This document shows, piece by piece, positions 26,735 to 33,286 of a DNA stretch of 64,000 bases (the stretch's first letter is position 1; each line of letters opens with the position of its first letter). The notes beneath the pieces were generated by a model that was not told where the DNA came from, searched no databases, and saw only the letters and a program-made list of their open reading frames with translations. The DNA is from Planctomycetota bacterium (lineage in GTDB: Bacteria; Planctomycetota; UBA1135; UBA2386), in NCBI GenBank assembly GCA_965223545.1, contig OZ245006.1:3360001-3424000 (forward strand). Direction: 5' to 3'. A program made the translations under genes and the position numbers.

Positions 26735-26937
26735 GCGGAAGCGCGGGTGTCAGCGGGCGACCGCCGCGAACTCCGGGGCCAGCGCGTCTCGTGCAGATCG
26801 GCTTCGACTGCTGGGGACCCCGTACTGCGACGAAACAGACGAATCGCGGGGTTCCTGTCCTCCACCGGCGCGCGCTCGCGCTTCTGCCTCTTGCGGCCAA
26901 GTTGGCCGCGAGAGCCCAAATGGACGCGAGGCTACCG

Positions 26938-29199
26938 ATGCAGTTTGTGGACCGAGTCTCTTCGACCGTCGTCGCGGCGATCGCGCTGAGCGCGAGCCTT
27001 GCCGCCCTCCCCCAGCAGCCGCAACTCGATGCGCCTCGCGAAGATGCGCTGGACCGGCCGATTCCGTTGGACGCGTTCTCGGTGCCGATCCACACCGGCG
27101 AAGGAGAACAGGGCGTCGACTACGGCATCTGGGCGTCCGGCCCGGACTACAAGGTGTCGTTCCACGACGGCATGACGTTCTACCCCGTGCTGGGCGCGGA
27201 CGCGCCGCGCAACCTGCCGGTGCGCTGGGTGACGACGTCGGTGCGCGTCGGCGAACGCGAGATGGTGGGCGATGTGCCGCGCACGCACCACACCGACTGG
27301 CGCTTCGAGTACCGGCACGCCGGCTTCACCGAGGCATACGACGTGCGCGTCGACGGCGTCGAGCAGACGTTCGTGCTGCAACGCCGTCCGGATGGCGCAG
27401 GCGACCTCGTGATCCGCGGCCGGCTGGACACCGAACTGCGCACCGACCACTCACCGGCGCAGGTCGGCGAGCTGGTGCTGCGGGATGGCGGCGGTCAGCC
27501 CATCGTGCGCTACGGGCAGGCGCTGGCGTTCGACGCCGCCGGCCGCACGCGCGACGTGACCTCGCAGTTCGACGGCGAGGCCGTCGAGCTGCGTCTGTCG
27601 GCGGACTTCTTGGCGAACGCCACCTATCCACTCACCGTGGACCCGCTGCTGAGCACCGCGCTCGTGGCCGCCGGAGGAGGCCGCATCCTCGACATGTCGA
27701 TCGGGCGCAACGACCGCGAGGACGAGCTCATGGTCGGGTTCATCCGCGAAGTCTCGGCCGGCGACAACGACGTCTACGTGCACCTGATGAAAGACAACTG
27801 GGCGTTTACGACGCCGGTGTTCACGGACATCTCTTCGCAGTGGGCGCACTGGAGTATCGATCTGGCGTACGTCGCCGGCGCCCAAAGCTGGGTCGCGGCG
27901 TACAACCGTGGAGTAGGGGCCAGCCGTCAGATCCGCGTGCACTACCACGACGGCGGAGATTTCTCGATGAGCGCCGTCCTGCAGTTCCTCACCAATGCCG
28001 ACTACGCCAACGACATTTCGGTTGGAGGTAGCTCCGACACGTCGTCGACCGAGGCCCTGATCGCCTATCGCAAGGACGTAGGCATCTCCAACACAACCCG
28101 GTCCCAAGTCCGCGCGTTCGTCCTCGACGCAGCCGCGCGCCGTTCGGTCACCGAATTCCAGGTCAATGACACTAGTTCAATTCGGGATGCCGAGCACTGT
28201 CAAGTCAACGAGCGACGGCAGCTGGGCGGATTCCCCTGGTTCGTGACGTACCAAGAGTTGGACTACTACTACACGATCCCCGATTGGCGCGTCCACATCG
28301 CACGGGTGTGGGACGACGGTCGCACCGAGCGGGCGGAGATCGGTGATCCCGGCACCGCGGTGCACGATGTCGCGCCGCACATCGACGCCAGCCACGACCG
28401 TGCGCTGGTGGCCTTCCACCAGCGGCCCAACACCGGCACGCTTCCCGCGCTCTTCGCCAAGAACGTGTGGACCCAACGCGTCGATTGGCCGTTGGCGTCG
28501 GCGCAGCCCACGATCCGTGCTCCGCAGGAGCTCACTCGGCTCTCGGACGAGGTGCAGCTCGGCGGTGTCGCCTTCGATACGCTCACCAAGAGCCACTGGA
28601 CGATCGTCGCCGGCCAGTTCAGCGGCGTTCCGACGTTGAGGGTCTGGCGCGTGGGTCACGACGGTCTCTCCGCAGAAGCAGAGTTGATCAGCGGAGCAGC
28701 CAGCTACCAATTTGCGGCTGTCACGTTCGACGACGACGCACGGGAGTTCTCGATCGCGTTCCACGGCGGCGACAACGTGCTCGGCACCAAGATGGCCTAT
28801 CACAGGGGCGTCCACGCGACGGTGAGCGGCACCGGATGTGGGAGCGCCACGATGCGCCCGCGCGGAACGTCGCACTCCTATCTGCCCTGGTCGGGGACCT
28901 CGAACTTCGGGGTCACCCTCAACAACGCGCCCAGCGGCACAACCGCGGTGCTGATGTTCTCCGGTGCTCCAGCGACGGTCAGCCTGGCGAGCTTCGGGCT
29001 GCCGAACTGCAACCTGCTCCTCGATCCGGCGCAACTCACTGGCAGCATCAGCGTGCAGCTCTCGAGCGGGTTCTACGACCTGCCAATGCGGATCCCGAGC
29101 GGCGTTGCCGGCAACCTCAGCATGCAGTGGGTGTACTTCGATCCGGCGGCGACCGGCGGGCTGAGCTTGACCGAGCGGTTGAGCATTCTGGTCAAGTAG
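26938..29199 (+). CDS. Secreted hypothetical protein (paralogue A), beta-rich, with conserved C-terminal module
   Basis: Signal peptide; N-domain 'YGIWASGPDYKVSF...EAYDVRVDGVEQTFVL...YPLTVDP' shared with the next gene. Confidence 0.8.
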   Translation: MQFVDRVSSTVVAAIALSASLAALPQQPQLDAPREDALDRPIPLDAFSVPIHTGEGEQGVDYGIWASGPDYKVSFHDGMTFYPVLGADAPRNLPVRWVTTSVRVGEREMVGDVPRTHHTDWRFEYRHAGFTEAYDVRVDGVEQTFVLQRRPDGAGDLVIRGRLDTELRTDHSPAQVGELVLRDGGGQPIVRYGQALAFDAAGRTRDVTSQFDGEAVELRLSADFLANATYPLTVDPLLSTALVAAGGGRILDMSIGRNDREDELMVGFIREVSAGDNDVYVHLMKDNWAFTTPVFTDISSQWAHWSIDLAYVAGAQSWVAAYNRGVGASRQIRVHYHDGGDFSMSAVLQFLTNADYANDISVGGSSDTSSTEALIAYRKDVGISNTTRSQVRAFVLDAAARRSVTEFQVNDTSSIRDAEHCQVNERRQLGGFPWFVTYQELDYYYTIPDWRVHIARVWDDGRTERAEIGDPGTAVHDVAPHIDASHDRALVAFHQRPNTGTLPALFAKNVWTQRVDWPLASAQPTIRAPQELTRLSDEVQLGGVAFDTLTKSHWTIVAGQFSGVPTLRVWRVGHDGLSAEAELISGAASYQFAAVTFDDDAREFSIAFHGGDNVLGTKMAYHRGVHATVSGTGCGSATMRPRGTSHSYLPWSGTSNFGVTLNNAPSGTTAVLMFSGAPATVSLASFGLPNCNLLLDPAQLTGSISVQLSSGFYDLPMRIPSGVAGNLSMQWVYFDPAATGGLSLTERLSILVK

Positions 29200-29232: not shown

Positions 29233-29326
29233 AAATCGGAAGGAAGTCCGTGACGCCCGGGGGGGATCGCGGGTGAGGAGGCGTGGCCGCGCTCGGCGGC
29301 CAGAGAACCTCCTACCTGGCGATCCA

Positions 29327-31612
29327 ATGAAACCACTGACTCCCGCCCTGTTCGGCCTGCTGGCCGCGCTGTCCCCCGCTTTCGCCCAGGAGCCCGGCTC
29401 CGCCGCGCCAAGACCGTCACAACCGGCGGTCGACGGCGAGTGGATGCTGCCGCTGCACACCATGGCCGACGACCCCGAAGGAGGTCGCTACGGCACTTGG
29501 GCAGCGGGCCCCGACTACAAGGCAGCCTTCGACGACGGCTTCACCTTCTATCCGGTCCTCGGCGAGACCTATCCGGACAACCTGCCACTGCGTTGGCGGA
29601 CCGACACCATCACGGTGGGTGGCGCGGTGCTCGTCGACGGCAGTGCGCAGGCCCGGCGCAACGTCGACGAGTGGCGCTACGAGCTGCGCTACGGCGCGGT
29701 CACCGAGGCCTACGACATCCGCCGGGACGGCGTCGAGCAGACCTTCGTGCTGCAGCGCGACACGGGCGCCGGCGATGTCGTGGTGAGTGGAGTCATCGAC
29801 ACGCCCCTGCACAGCGCGAACGCGCTGGCCGCGGTACAGAGCCTCTCCTTCGTCGACGGCGAAGGTCGGCCGGTCATCCGCTACGGTGAAGCCCTTGCCT
29901 TCGACGCGCGCGACCGCCGCATCCCAGTGCAGACGAGCTTCGACGGCGAGCGGATCCAGCTGCGCCTCGATGGCGCGTGGCTCGCCGGCGCGACCTACCC
30001 GGTCACCATCGACCCGCTGACATCGTCGACGGTGATCGTCGCGGGTGGCGGATTCGTCAACTACCCCAACCTCGCGCGCGACGGCAGCAACAACCGGATC
30101 ATGGCGGTGTTCTCTCGGCCGAGCTCGGGATCGGACTACGACCTCTACGGCAAGCTGCTCAACGACGACCTGACGTTCGTGGCGTCGGCGTTCAGCGACG
30201 TCACCGCGAGCTGGAGCACGCGTTACGCCTCCGTGGCGTATGCGCAGAGCGCCGACAAGTGGATGATCGCGCTGGGTCGCGAGAACCTCCCCGGTGCCGG
30301 CGTCCGCGTCTACTTCCACTCGGGTGCCAGCACGTCGCTGAACACCGGCAACATCATCGCCACGACGCGCCCCAGCGGCTACCAGGACCAGCACCCGAGC
30401 ATCGGTGGCAACTCGACCGATACCGCGCTCGGGCGCGGCTACCTCGTGTTCCGTCGCGATCAAGGCAGCGGCTCTCCCAACGAGATGCACTCGCGGGTCT
30501 ACGGTGTGGTCGTCCAGCCGCAAACGGAGTCCTTCGGGGTGCAGAACAACCTGCACACCGCGCCGGGGTTCGGCCTCTACGACGCCGAGTGGCCGTGCGT
30601 CACGCGTGACAACGGCGGACTCGGCTCTTGGGCGGTGGCCTGGCAAGAGCAGGACCACACCTTCGGCCCCGGCGAGCCCTGGGTGATCGTCGGCCACCGC
30701 GTGGGTGGCCTCGGCCAGCTCAGCACGTCGACCGTCCTGGTCGACGGTGGCAGGGCGAATTCGCACAAGCTGCACCCGCAGGTTTCTGGAGCGGCCGGCC
30801 GCTACTTGCTCAGCTACGTGGAACGCGACAACGTGCTGCCGTTCAGCCACCTCACTGGTGACGCGTTCTACACCCAGCGCTTCGACTGGCCAAACGCAGC
30901 GGCCGCGCCGACGGTGATGGTGCCGCGTTCGGTCCTCGCGCCGGGCGGGAACGGCCTGCGCACCAATCTCACCAATCGGGCGATCGCGTTCGACTCCGAC
31001 ACCGAGTCGCACTGGGCGGTGACCTACCGCACCGTCGCCAACGACCTCTACATCGCGCGTCTCGGCATGTCCGGGCGCGTCGTCGAGAGCGGCTTGGTCT
31101 ACGCCGATCCGACCCTGGCCGCCGGCTCCGCCAGCGTGTGCTACAACCCCGTCGACCACGAGTTCGCGGTAGTGTTCGGCACCCAGCTGTTCAGCCGCCT
31201 CGAAGGCCGGCACTTCACCTATCAGCCAGCCGCGAACACCGTCTTCGGCACCGCTTGCGGTCCGCTCACCATCGCCGGCCAGAACCGCGGCAAGTTCGAG
31301 CAACCCTTCGCCGGCTCCGAGTTCTTCGAGCTGACGCTGAACGGCCTGCCCAACGCGCCTTCGGCGTTGTTCGTCAGCCTGGCGCAAGCACCCGGCCGCA
31401 TCCCGGTCGGCGGCTGCTCACTGCTGCTCGACCCCAACGCGAGCTTCCAGCACGTGCTGACGACGACCACCAACGTGCTCGGCCGACTCACCGTGCCGGT
31501 GCCGCTGCCCGACACCATCACCAACGCCGACGTATTCTGGCAGTTCTTCCAGTACGACGTCGCCCAAGCGCGGCTCCTCGCCTCCGAAGGCCTGCAAACC
31601 AGCATCAGGTGA
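29327..31612 (+). CDS. Secreted hypothetical protein (paralogue B)
   Basis: Signal peptide 'MKPLTPALFGLLAALSPAFA'; 'YGTWAAGPDYKAAF...EAYDIRRDGVEQTFVL...YPVTIDP'. Confidence 0.8.
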   Translation: MKPLTPALFGLLAALSPAFAQEPGSAAPRPSQPAVDGEWMLPLHTMADDPEGGRYGTWAAGPDYKAAFDDGFTFYPVLGETYPDNLPLRWRTDTITVGGAVLVDGSAQARRNVDEWRYELRYGAVTEAYDIRRDGVEQTFVLQRDTGAGDVVVSGVIDTPLHSANALAAVQSLSFVDGEGRPVIRYGEALAFDARDRRIPVQTSFDGERIQLRLDGAWLAGATYPVTIDPLTSSTVIVAGGGFVNYPNLARDGSNNRIMAVFSRPSSGSDYDLYGKLLNDDLTFVASAFSDVTASWSTRYASVAYAQSADKWMIALGRENLPGAGVRVYFHSGASTSLNTGNIIATTRPSGYQDQHPSIGGNSTDTALGRGYLVFRRDQGSGSPNEMHSRVYGVVVQPQTESFGVQNNLHTAPGFGLYDAEWPCVTRDNGGLGSWAVAWQEQDHTFGPGEPWVIVGHRVGGLGQLSTSTVLVDGGRANSHKLHPQVSGAAGRYLLSYVERDNVLPFSHLTGDAFYTQRFDWPNAAAAPTVMVPRSVLAPGGNGLRTNLTNRAIAFDSDTESHWAVTYRTVANDLYIARLGMSGRVVESGLVYADPTLAAGSASVCYNPVDHEFAVVFGTQLFSRLEGRHFTYQPAANTVFGTACGPLTIAGQNRGKFEQPFAGSEFFELTLNGLPNAPSALFVSLAQAPGRIPVGGCSLLLDPNASFQHVLTTTTNVLGRLTVPVPLPDTITNADVFWQFFQYDVAQARLLASEGLQTSIR

Positions 31613-31626
31613 AGGTACGGAGCCAG
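31610..31626 (+). repeat. REP-like repeat copy 2, left half (IS110 target)
   Basis: tgaagGTACGGAGCCAG matches the reverse complement of copies 1 and 3 up to the hairpin centre. Confidence 0.85.
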
Positions 31627-31870
31627 TCCTGCCCCGACAGATTTTGTCGGCCCTTCAGGGCAGGAAACTAGCCGCTGAGGAAGGGGGCGGGGAACGTGTG
31701 AGGGGCCCGGCAGCTACGCCCCCAATAGCCACTGGAGCACGTTTGCCCCAGAGCCAGTCTGGGTCCGAGTTGGCCATCCTTCACTGGTGAGGGGCACGTC
31801 GCCGTGCCCACTCCCGCAGGTCAGATTCGTTTGATCGCCGCCTCGGGCCGGGCCCACCACAACAAGGAGG
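31627..31870 (+). ncRNA. Putative bridge RNA region of the IS110 element
   Basis: Several stems (31627-34/31658-65, 31744-49/31791-96, 31813-16/31844-47); GAGCCAG 31751-57 equals target-left plus core; CAGGTCAG 31817-24 equals the element's right end plus core. RNA ends unknown. Confidence 0.7.
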
Positions 31871-31877
31871 ATGAAGT

Positions 31878-33260
31878 ATGGCTCGGAAGGGCAGAACGAG
31901 GAAGGGCAAGAAGCCCGCAGCGGAAGTATTACCAGTCGTGAAGCCCAACGCCGCCGGAATCGACATCGGCAGCCGCGAGCACTGGGTGTGCGCAGCAGCA
32001 CCCGACGGCAGTCGTCCGATCAAGCGATTCGGAACGACGACGCCCCAACTAGAGGCGCTCGCGGACTGGCTGGAGGAGCTCGGAGTGCGATCCGTCGCGA
32101 TGGAGAGCACCTATGTCTACTGGATTCCCGTCTACGAGCTACTCGAGTCGAGAGGCTTCGAGGTCATCCTCGCGAATGCCCGCGAGGTGAAGAACGTGCC
32201 GGGCCGCTCCAAGTCCGATGCCAGCGATTGCAGTTGGCTGCAGAAGCTACACACCTATGGCCTCATTCGCGCTTCGTTCCGGCCTCCGAAGGACATCTGT
32301 GCGTTGCGGACCCTGCAACGCCATGCCGCGTCTTTGATCGCGCAGCGCACGCGCCACACGCAGTTGATGCAGCGGTCACTGGATCAGATGAACGTGGCGA
32401 TCCATCGCGCGGTAACGGACATCACCGGCAAGACCGGCCTCGCGATCATCCGCGCGATTCTCGCTGGTGAACGCGACCCTCGAGCGCTCGCCAGACTGCG
32501 TGATCCGCGCTGCAAGATCTCCGAGAAGGAGCTCGCGGATCACTTGCAAGGGACCTGGATCGAGGAGCACATCTTCACTCTCGCTTCGGGCTTGCGGATG
32601 CTCGAGCACACCGACCACGAGATCGAGTCGGTCGAGAAGCGATTGATGGCGATGATCGAGGACCTGCAACCGGAGGAAGCCAAGACGGCCGACGTCCCCG
32701 AGCATCCAGACCCCCGCAAGGAGAGGAGCATCCGAACGAAGGGCGGCCGGGAGCTTCGCGATGCCCTCTGCCGGCTCGTCGGGTGTGATCTCACGCGAAT
32801 CGACGGTATCAGCCCGAGCACGGCCATGATCGTGCTCACCGAGGTCGGCTACGACCTCGATGCTTTCCCGACCGAGAAGCACTTCGTCTCCTGGCTACGC
32901 CTGTGCCCACGTCAAGCCGTCTCGGGTGGAAAGCGCATCAAGAAGCACCGCAACAACATCGCGGTCAGCAGGATCGCCACGGTCCTCCGGATGGCCGCCC
33001 TGTCCCTCCAACGTACTCAGACAGCTCTCGGCGCACACTTCCGCAAGATCGCCCGCGCGAAGGACGGCAACGTCGCCATCTTTGCCATCGCCCGCAAACT
33101 GGCCCTGCTCATCTACCGCATGCTGAAGTTCGGCCAGGACTACGTAGACGAAGGCGCCAAGGCCTACGAGGAGCGCTTCACCCAGCGACGCATCGTCGGA
33201 CTCCGACAGAACGCTAAATCCCTCGGGTACAAGCTCATACCGATCGTCGAGGCTGGGTGA
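31878..33260 (+). CDS. IS110 family DEDD transposase/recombinase
   Basis: RBS AAGGAGG; 'GIDIG', 'AMES', 'KSDASD'; C-terminal domain 'IDGIS...FVSWLRLCP...SGG'; intact 460 aa. Confidence 0.96.
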   Translation: MARKGRTRKGKKPAAEVLPVVKPNAAGIDIGSREHWVCAAAPDGSRPIKRFGTTTPQLEALADWLEELGVRSVAMESTYVYWIPVYELLESRGFEVILANAREVKNVPGRSKSDASDCSWLQKLHTYGLIRASFRPPKDICALRTLQRHAASLIAQRTRHTQLMQRSLDQMNVAIHRAVTDITGKTGLAIIRAILAGERDPRALARLRDPRCKISEKELADHLQGTWIEEHIFTLASGLRMLEHTDHEIESVEKRLMAMIEDLQPEEAKTADVPEHPDPRKERSIRTKGGRELRDALCRLVGCDLTRIDGISPSTAMIVLTEVGYDLDAFPTEKHFVSWLRLCPRQAVSGGKRIKKHRNNIAVSRIATVLRMAALSLQRTQTALGAHFRKIARAKDGNVAIFAIARKLALLIYRMLKFGQDYVDEGAKAYEERFTQRRIVGLRQNAKSLGYKLIPIVEAG

Positions 33261-33272
33261 GTTTCAGGTCAG

Positions 33273-33286
33273 GCTCCGTACTCACC
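33273..33286 (+). repeat. REP-like repeat copy 2, right half
   Basis: GCTCCGTACTCACC completes the hairpin and contains the stop of the convergent gene. Confidence 0.85.

What the first reader, a model, noticed from the sequence alone, without database searches (positions are those of the whole stretch)
31627..31870. Bridge-RNA-like 5' end of the IS110 with readable target and donor guides
Seen: GAGCCAG (31751-57) is identical to the left target flank plus core (31620-26), and the match continues 2 nt into the element. It lies inside the TGCCCC/GGGGCA stem. CAGGTCAG (31817-24) is identical to the element's last 8 nt (33265-72) and lies inside the CCCG/CGGG stem next to a small GAT/ATC hairpin. 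The order is target loop then donor loop, upstream of the transposase. GAGTT (31767-71) could pair with target-right GGCTC using two G:U pairs; I could not place a right donor guide confidently. Established: IS110 elements such as IS621 use a bispecific bridge RNA in the left non-coding end. Inference: a programmable recombinase with an (C)AG core rather than the CT core of IS621.
Basis: partly seen in the sequence, partly recalled or inferred. Interest (0 to 1): 0.85.

Follow-up and report, generated by a model that had tools for sequence, protein, structure and literature searches.

The report
Bridge RNA with fold-back donor site
This jumping gene carries a guide RNA that spells out its landing site, as known relatives do, but one of the guides for its own ends matches a spot inside its left end, which suggests that it travels as a single DNA strand folded into a hairpin; no experiment has tested that yet.

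Summary
The element (31627-33272) is an intact IS110 with 23 near-identical copies in its genome, 22 of them in one site of a REP hairpin. Each loop reads 5' guide, inner hairpin, 3' guide; GAGCCAG and AGGTCAG are the 3' guides. The core is AG, which is CT on the minus strand, and the extra TC behaves as a handshake guide. GAGTT is not a guide; the second target guide is at 31727-30. Instead it matches an internal left-end site (31650-57): 6.46/8 vs 4.23 permuted in 61 guide sets, and 13 vs 1 in independent pairs. That site lies between a fixed-position hairpin and an inverted repeat of the right end. Best reading: the donor is one strand folded back. Against it: the match is weak in a distant subclade, there are no RNA data, and ISPpu9 circles survive mutation of the equivalent hairpin. 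I did not find this in ten paper searches.

The parts
31610..31626 (+). Left arm of the REP-like target hairpin plus loop. GAGCC 31620-24 and core AG 31625-26 are matched by the 3' target guide.
31627..31633 (+). First 7 nt of the element. Not matched by the donor loop; its first base is matched by the handshake position after the 3' target guide.
   Evidence: handshake position 1: 0.88 vs 0.54 permuted, n=57
31634..31650 (.). Left-end hairpin (CCGACA/TGTCGG, 5-nt loop), at a fixed distance from the core and from the internal site
   Evidence: geometry met in 40 of 57 vs 4.7 shuffled
31650..31657 (+). Internal site identical at 6 of 8 positions to the 5' donor guide; ends in a pseudo-core CA (31656-57)
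31664..31669 (+). GAAACT, inverted repeat of the right-end AGTTTC
31710..31850 (+). Conserved two-loop bridge-RNA core (predicted; transcript and its ends not shown)
31724..31731 (+). 5' strand of the target loop. AGC-C (31727-30) is complementary to G-GCT of the + strand right of the insertion point.
   Evidence: 2.65/6 vs 1.50, only at offset 0, n=54
31734..31748 (+). Inner hairpin of the target loop; the outer stem is 31718-21 with 31761-64
31751..31759 (+).
31776..31783 (+). 5' strand of the donor loop, ATCCTT-CA; matches the internal left-end site, not the terminus
31786..31815 (+). Inner hairpin of the donor loop; the basal stem is 31765-69 with 31842-46
31818..31824 (+).
31878..33260 (+). 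IS110 recombinase, 460 aa; D29/E76/D114/D117 and S349 intact
33260..33272 (+). Right end: AGTTTC, AGGTC, core AG
33273..33281 (+). Right arm of the REP-like target (GCTCCGTAC)

Best explanation
An IS110 bridge recombinase whose donor is a folded single strand. SHOWN by sequence comparison: two pseudo-symmetric RNA loops; a target loop that matches both strands of the 10-bp site GAGCC-AG-GCT; a donor loop whose 3' guide equals the right end and whose 5' guide equals an internal left-end site. Both donor guides can therefore pair only with the minus strand. INFERRED: (1) the enzyme cuts the minus strand 3' of CT at both ends and releases it as a circle, leaving the original copy in place. (2) At the circle junction the minus strand folds back: the inverted repeat closes one side, the left-end hairpin closes the other, and the unpaired bubble between them presents two antiparallel segments that mimic the two strands of a duplex donor. 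(3) Only the CT-bearing segment is exchanged with the minus strand of the duplex target, which gives exactly the two junctions observed; the partner segment has no true core and is not exchanged. (4) Replication or repair fills in the second strand. A cruciform extruded from a double-stranded circle would be the same geometry. Odds: bridge RNA real about 0.95; the internal site is a true partner of the 5' donor guide about 0.85; the fold-back geometry about 0.55.
For: Guide vs internal site 6.46/8 vs 4.23+-0.15 permuted, 0/2000, n=61; canonical terminus model 2.04 vs 2.06, 1295/2000, n=57; the target 5' guide as control 3.56 vs 3.47. It holds within groups: 7.22 vs 5.74 (n=32, >=50% protein identity) and 5.62 vs 3.95 (n=29), with one clear peak in a fixed-offset scan, at 4-5 nt before the repeat. 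In 28 independent tree pairs own beats swapped 13 to 1 with 14 ties (p 0.002); 25 of 33 double changes are matched. Hairpin geometry is met in 40 of 57 vs 4.7 shuffled (max 8), modal spacing 8 and 6 nt; the outer pair of the inverted repeat is complementary in 52 of 57 vs 29 permuted; the 5-bp repeat is complementary in 55 of 57, 7 of them with changed letters. No complement of the guide elsewhere in the RNA or early gene: 5.70 vs 5.71. Right end joined to left start at AG in L142, L143, L159 (3 of 98). Literature: IS621 excises a single-stranded circle (10.64898/2026.08.31.748434, passages). CazIS110-1 excises and integrates via one strand, with plain single-stranded donor about 20-fold weaker at one junction (10.1101/2025.10.25.684509, section 7). 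ISPpu9 circles join at the correct AG without the left flank but need the A box (PMC12288879, section 17).
Against: In ISPpu9, mutating the A-box palindrome did not stop correct circle formation (PCR detection). Held-out loci match weakly: 9 of 15 parsed, mean 4.0/8 vs 3.1 for foreign guides, nearly all from one distant subclade and one misparsed; by eye 4-5 of 8 in the unparsed ones I scored. 11 of 44 guide changes in independent pairs have no site change, and 28 site changes have no guide change. No strand preference for the hairpin: mean energies equal, + strand better in 35 of 57 and minus in 17; wobble counts 4 vs 1. In this element the first 8 nt can also pair with 31658-65, which changes the predicted fold. 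The donor-loop handshake is not significant (105/2000 and 262/2000). No transcript, circle or activity data for this element.
Confidence: 0.55

Rival explanations
1. The internal site is a half-matched binding site in ordinary duplex DNA. The recombinase-RNA complex binds it through the 5' donor guide and reads GAAAC by protein contact. It serves as a non-cleavable anchor or as an RNA-guided operator next to the element's promoter, and the circle junction is used with the 3' donor guide alone.
For: GAAAC lies about 5 nt beyond the core at the right end and beyond the pseudo-core at the internal site, in inverted orientation. Half-match recognition is reported for IS621. In ISPpu9 the transcription start is about 84 nt inside the left end, just downstream of the 43-nt A box (PMC8450116 passages). 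The ISPpu9 palindrome was dispensable for circles.
Against: It does not explain the hairpin at a fixed spacing between the core and the site (40 of 57), the letter-by-letter complementarity of the repeat, or how ISPpu9 picks the left AG without its left flank.
Confidence: 0.25
2. An ordinary duplex donor recognised by the 3' donor guide and the handshake only. The 5' guide and the internal site are relics of a local duplication, or two copies of a protein-bound RNA motif.
For: The match decays to 4-5 of 8 in a distant subclade. Many single-sided changes occur. IS621 RNA has a 5' stem-loop of its own.
Against: Matched double changes in independent pairs, across proteins 39-78% identical to this one, need ongoing selection for identity at variable positions. 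The ISPpu9 A box lies upstream of its transcription start.
Confidence: 0.12
3. The internal site is a true recombination site. Inversion between it and an end builds a canonical duplex donor as an intermediate.
For: The site and the right end are inverted half-sites.
Against: All 23 copies keep one arrangement. None of six predicted rearranged or joined junction motifs occurs in contig C1. Natural end-to-end joins are at AG. The pseudo-core is CA in 25 of 57 and CT in 1.
Confidence: 0.05
4. The matches are chance and no guide RNA is made.
For: No transcript data exist for this element.
Against: Covariation of guides with flanks, compensatory structure, and 0 of 43 one-base REP variants occupied against 22 filled and 82 empty matching REPs (Fisher p 3e-4).
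Confidence: 0.02

Closest known systems
ISPpu9 / MITEPpu9 of Pseudomonas putida (IS110 group; PMC12288879, PMC8450116)
   Same: AG core at both ends, REP target, circles joined at AG, and a 43-nt left 'A box' with a palindrome plus a short right 'B box'. Read by eye from supplementary Table S2, the A box ends in CAAACA and the B box holds TGTTTG + 5 nt + AG: the same anatomy and the same kind of inverted repeat as here.
   Different: In what I read, the authors describe the group as lacking end repeats, assign no guides and leave the palindrome unexplained. No blastn hit to a gene-less miniature copy of this element in this genome.
IS621 and ISCro4/IS622 bridge recombinases (PMC11208160, PMC11208158; PDB 8wt6, 8wt9, 9t56)
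   Same: Fold (Foldseek E 2e-13, 20% identity), DEDD plus Ser, RNA in the left end, target loop before donor loop, guide-hairpin-guide loops, handshake position, CT core when read on the minus strand.
   Different: 460 vs 328 aa; the element lies inverted relative to the core. In IS621 the two donor guides pair with opposite strands of one contiguous duplex junction; here both match the same strand about 30 nt apart.
IS1111-group seekRNA elements (PMC11187229)
   Same: Guide order relative to the gene (top-strand complement first); an inverted repeat near the ends.
   Different: The RNA is upstream of the gene, not downstream. The repeat is 6-7 bp and its left copy lies 32-43 nt from the core, not 11-13 bp at 7 and 3 nt from the ends.
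CazIS110-1 (10.1101/2025.10.25.684509) and single-stranded IS621 excision (10.64898/2026.08.31.748434)
   Same: One-strand excision and integration, as the model here requires.
   Different: In the sections and passages read, both donor guides match the terminal junction; no fold-back donor is described.
ISPpu10 (10.64898/2026.03.19.712850)
   Same: REP target in which a DNA stem-loop may matter.
   Different: There the stem-loop is in the target, beside a CT core; here the proposed structure is in the donor.

Membership tests
IS110 bridge recombinases | DEDD RuvC domain plus Tnp domain with catalytic serine | tested here: met
   PF01548 and PF02371; NF033542 248 bits vs cut-off 140; D29, D114, D117 in 52 of 52, E76 in 51 of 52, position 349 S in 42 and T in 10
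IS110 bridge recombinases | Conserved two-loop structure in a non-coding end | tested here: met
   92.4% of cells paired, 15 of 28 pairs with a change on both sides, 31 sequences (structure drawn from these sequences)
IS110 bridge recombinases | The RNA is expressed and binds the recombinase | not testable with these tools
   no RNA holder listed
IS110 bridge recombinases | [quoted passage not shown] | tested here: met
   6.66/7 vs 4.34 (left flank); 2.65/6 vs 1.50 (right flank, positions 1-4 each significant)
IS110 bridge recombinases | Shared core dinucleotide at both ends | tested here: met
   AG at both ends in 23 of 23 copies; left AG 49 and AA 8, right AG 48 and AA 7 of 57 homologues
IS621-type bridge RNA | Both donor guides pair with opposite strands of the contiguous duplex end junction | tested here: not met
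   5' donor guide vs terminus 2.04 vs 2.06 permuted; no signal in either identity group
IS621-type bridge RNA | Handshake guides in both loops | tested here: inconclusive
   target loop position 1 significant (0/2000), position 2 borderline (97/2000); donor loop not significant
IS1111 group | RNA downstream of the gene; 11-13-bp subterminal repeats 7 and 3 nt from the ends | tested here: not met
   RNA upstream; 6-7-bp repeat, left copy 32-43 nt from the core
ISPpu9-like elements | AG core, about 43-nt left box with palindrome, short right box, REP target | tested here: met
   31625-31669 spans 45 nt; compared by eye with Table S2; REP target
ISPpu9-like elements | Transposase clusters with that of ISPpu9 | not testable with these tools
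   no ISPpu9-labelled record among the 100 rows listed; the chromosome is not in those collections
ISPpu10-type structure-gated targeting | A target stem-loop adds specificity beyond the guides | tested here: inconclusive
   94 of 104 empty 10-bp matches carry the extended GGAGC arm, so the guides alone nearly explain the REP preference

The most novel reading that the evidence does not exclude
A widespread clade of IS110 elements, probably including ISPpu9, has a bridge RNA built for a single-stranded donor: both donor guides read the same strand, which folds into a hairpin-bounded bubble. The RNA-guided recombinase would then insert single-stranded DNA by one-strand exchange with full two-guide recognition, and surveys that look only near the junction would miss the fourth guide.
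Probability: 0.5. Interest if true: 0.85.

Novelty: new variant of a known kind. Interest (0 to 1): 0.72.

Why it matters
Whether IS110 elements move as single- or double-stranded circles is disputed in 2025-26 papers. Here the sequence itself appears to encode a single-strand solution, with base-level predictions. It would explain the conserved A box and palindrome of ISPpu9, which its authors left open. It would also explain why a large survey using 25-nt donor windows and keeping only models with four clear covariation sites (10.64898/2026.10.21.760802) could miss such elements: the site lies beyond that window. For engineering, a donor made of one folded strand would be a different cargo format from that of IS621. 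The bridge RNA by itself is one more member of a known class.

Tried and rejected
Rfam: nothing relevant, one hit at E 0.82. The single-sequence fold was not informative, z -1.62. Sigma-70 scan: 0 sites. Sequencing runs: no RNA holder listed. Contigs of 4 runs showed no joint, so no circle or inversion junction was seen; contigs drop rare forms, and loose ends at 31827 and others fall at GATC/GANTC-like sites and were ignored as likely library artefacts (inference). Relatives: no close homologue in 40 related genomes (best E 1e-43) and 5 of 400 phylum genomes at E<=1e-60, so covariation rests. Hairpin strand bias was inconclusive. Two ISPpu9-associated primers contain CTGTC/CTGT, as does the A-box site, but their context could not be placed, so they are not used. 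Look-ups in earlier scan notes by sequence, place and words gave nothing on a fold-back donor.

Full report
ELEMENT. Window 31627-33272 encodes a 460-aa IS110 recombinase (31878-33260; PF01548 and PF02371; NF033542). The AlphaFold model (pLDDT 88.9) is closest to IS621, and the catalytic positions are conserved. The genome G000 (8.1 Mb, 70% GC) holds 23 full copies and one 114-nt fragment. Six copies are identical to this one and 17 belong to a second allele group differing at 9-11 positions, none of them in a guide. Boundaries come from where the flanks diverge, independently of the RNA.

TARGET. All 23 copies have GAGCCAG on the left and 22 have GCTCC on the right. Rejoined, the site is the loop of a palindromic repeat; 94 empty GAGCCAGGCTC sites exist, most with the same arms. 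A Y1-transposase gene (PF01797) at C1:3914571 is flanked by two inverted copies of the repeat, each invaded by this element; that is the layout of a REP-associated tyrosine transposase locus (family knowledge, recalled). Both target guides are needed to explain the choice: GAGCCAG is followed by something other than GCT at 1855 places (46 of them the element's own) and by GCT at 104. A natural control agrees: 22 filled and 82 empty REPs with the matching sequence, against 0 filled of 43 with one base changed (Fisher p 3e-4; insertions are not fully independent).

HOMOLOGUES AND ROWS DROPPED. Loci came (75; 30; 30; 80). I removed 29 loci (own-genome copies and weak hits) and 9 duplicates or partial loci, and added the window. 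163 had an upstream region and 129 matched the RNA profile; 126 were gap-free at the anchors. Of these, 102 had a right end and 98 also a left repeat. After excluding by name 11 loci I judged misparsed (some already lacked a right end) and those with under 40 nt upstream, 91 remained, giving 61 distinct guide sets, 57 with a left junction and 54 with a right flank. Right ends and left junctions were located by best match to the 3' guides, so their high identity is partly by construction. For the left junction the permutation null uses the same search. For the right end I ran no permutation; it rests on multi-copy boundaries and on the GTTTC-type motif directly before the match.

RNA LAYOUT. 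The consensus fold of 31 close homologues gives two look-alike loops, each closed by an outer stem, with a 5' strand, an inner hairpin and a 3' strand ending in AG. This structure is 92.4% paired, with 15 of 28 pairs changed on both sides (derived from these sequences). The 3' strand of the first loop equals the left flank plus core (6.66/7 vs 4.34), and the next base equals the element's first base (0.88 vs 0.54). The 5' strand of that loop is complementary to the right flank (2.65/6 vs 1.50, at offset 0 only). In IS621 each loop runs guide, stem-loop, guide, handshake around a CT core (PMC11208158 passages; PMC11208160 section 6). Read on the minus strand, this target loop is the same, and AG is CT (inference).

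THE FOURTH GUIDE. By symmetry the 5' strand of the donor loop (31776-83) should complement the element's first bases. It does not (2.04 vs 2.06). It is instead identical to a site inside the left end, ending 3-6 nt before a GAAAC motif: 6.46/8 vs 4.23 permuted (0/2000), with 32 of 61 at 7 or 8 of 8. The left motif was located from the right end, not from the guide. The signal holds within both identity groups, and a fixed-offset scan has its one clear peak at 4-5 nt; a smaller reverse-strand bump appears at offset 8 (2.56 vs 2.02). In 28 non-overlapping tree pairs, own beats swapped 13 to 1 with 14 ties. Between core and site lies a hairpin of varying sequence at conserved spacing (40 of 57 vs 4.7 in shuffles). 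The GAAAC motif is the inverted repeat of the right-end GTTTC and changes with it (GTAAC, GGAAC, ATAAC, GCAAC). Natural joins of right end to left start occur at AG (L142, L143, L159), so the junction carries, in order: repeat, five guide-matched bases, core, about 8 unmatched bases, hairpin, guide-matched site, pseudo-core, about 5 bases, repeat.

MECHANISM. Both donor guides are identical to the + strand, so they can pair only with the minus strand. Folding that strand pairs the repeats at one side and the hairpin at the other and leaves the two guide-matched segments antiparallel in a bubble, the arrangement a duplex donor offers in IS621. One-strand exchange 3' of CT then yields the two observed junctions. 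This is inference. It fits single-stranded excision of IS621, one-strand integration by CazIS110-1 with a handicap for unstructured single strands, and ISPpu9 circle formation without the left flank.

RESULTS AGAINST. ISPpu9 still formed correct circles with its palindrome mutated; the authors suggest a role in efficiency or in integration. In held-out loci the match was weak: 4.0 vs 3.1 in 9 of 15 parsed, mostly one distant subclade with an AA core, one misparsed. Single-sided changes are common. The hairpin shows no minus-strand preference. In this element the terminus can pair with 31658-65, which competes with the open bubble. The donor-loop handshake is not significant. A duplex half-site or operator role remains a serious rival.

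KNOWN OR NOT. ISPpu9 shows the same end anatomy by eye, and one of its published primers reads as donor-loop stem plus B-box end, which suggests its Ssr9 RNA is a bridge-RNA copy (inference). Ten searches found no description of a donor guide matching an internal left-end site or of a fold-back donor. The library lacks most subscription papers; figures and bioRxiv supplements were not visible, including Fig. S12 of 10.64898/2026.10.21.760802, which shows deviant bridge RNAs and may bear on novelty.

WHAT I SAW OF EACH PAPER. PMC11208160: abstract, sections 6 and 12, passages. PMC11208158, PMC13626964, PMC11187229, 10.64898/2026.08.31.748434, 10.64898/2026.08.14.744561, 10.1101/2025.05.14.653916, 10.1101/2024.06.21.599552: passages. 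10.64898/2026.03.19.712850: abstract, part 2 of 3 of the results. 10.1101/2025.10.25.684509: abstract, part 1 of 3 of the results, section 7. PMC12288879: passages, sections 14 and 17, part 1 of 2 of section 18, part 1 of 3 of the supplement. PMC8450116: passages and three supplement rows. 10.64898/2026.10.21.760802: section 8 and passages.

VERDICT. A real bridge-RNA IS110 targeting a REP. The donor-guide match to an internal site is well supported in the close clade; its fold-back reading is about even odds. New variant of a known kind; interest 0.72.

Noticed in passing
G000:C1:3912823-3917190 (L225 1340-2540): A 333-aa Y1 transposase gene (PF01797) flanked by two inverted REPs, both invaded by this IS110.
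   Followed up: partly
G000:C1:4826231-4829693: Two copies around a 173-bp direct duplication of the left flank. The first copy's right end is joined to a bare AG with no target match, which suggests a one-ended or half-match transfer.
   Followed up: partly
G000:C1:4330732 and 1013438; empty sites near 4241119, 4241192, 4022551: REP arms are duplicated in tandem, as if one REP were nested in another just before the AG; this also occurs without the element.
   Followed up: no
G000:C1:2860778 and 10 other places: A second multi-copy element with weak IS110 similarity (515-aa open frame, about 1.97 kb, 11 copies), usually next to an abundant 176-bp tandem repeat family.
   Followed up: no
L107, L111, L131, L133, L165, L171, L172: These relatives have left flanks resembling right ends of sibling elements, and target guides close to sibling donor ends: elements aimed at each other's ends.
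   Followed up: partly
L018, L047, L216, L221-L223, L231-L235, L237-L239: A subclade with an AA core and an A-run target guide, inserted at the end of what look like IS3-type orfA frames (annotated IS3-like in L235); its internal-site match is weak.
   Followed up: partly
alignment A2, position 349 of the window protein: The catalytic serine position is threonine in 10 of 52 homologues.
   Followed up: no
window 26791-29199 and 29273-31612: Two tandem secreted-looking paralogues of about 790 aa with no Pfam match; the stop codon of the second lies inside the REP arm.
   Followed up: no
ISPpu9 supplement, Tables S1 and S2: [quoted passage not shown]
   Followed up: partly
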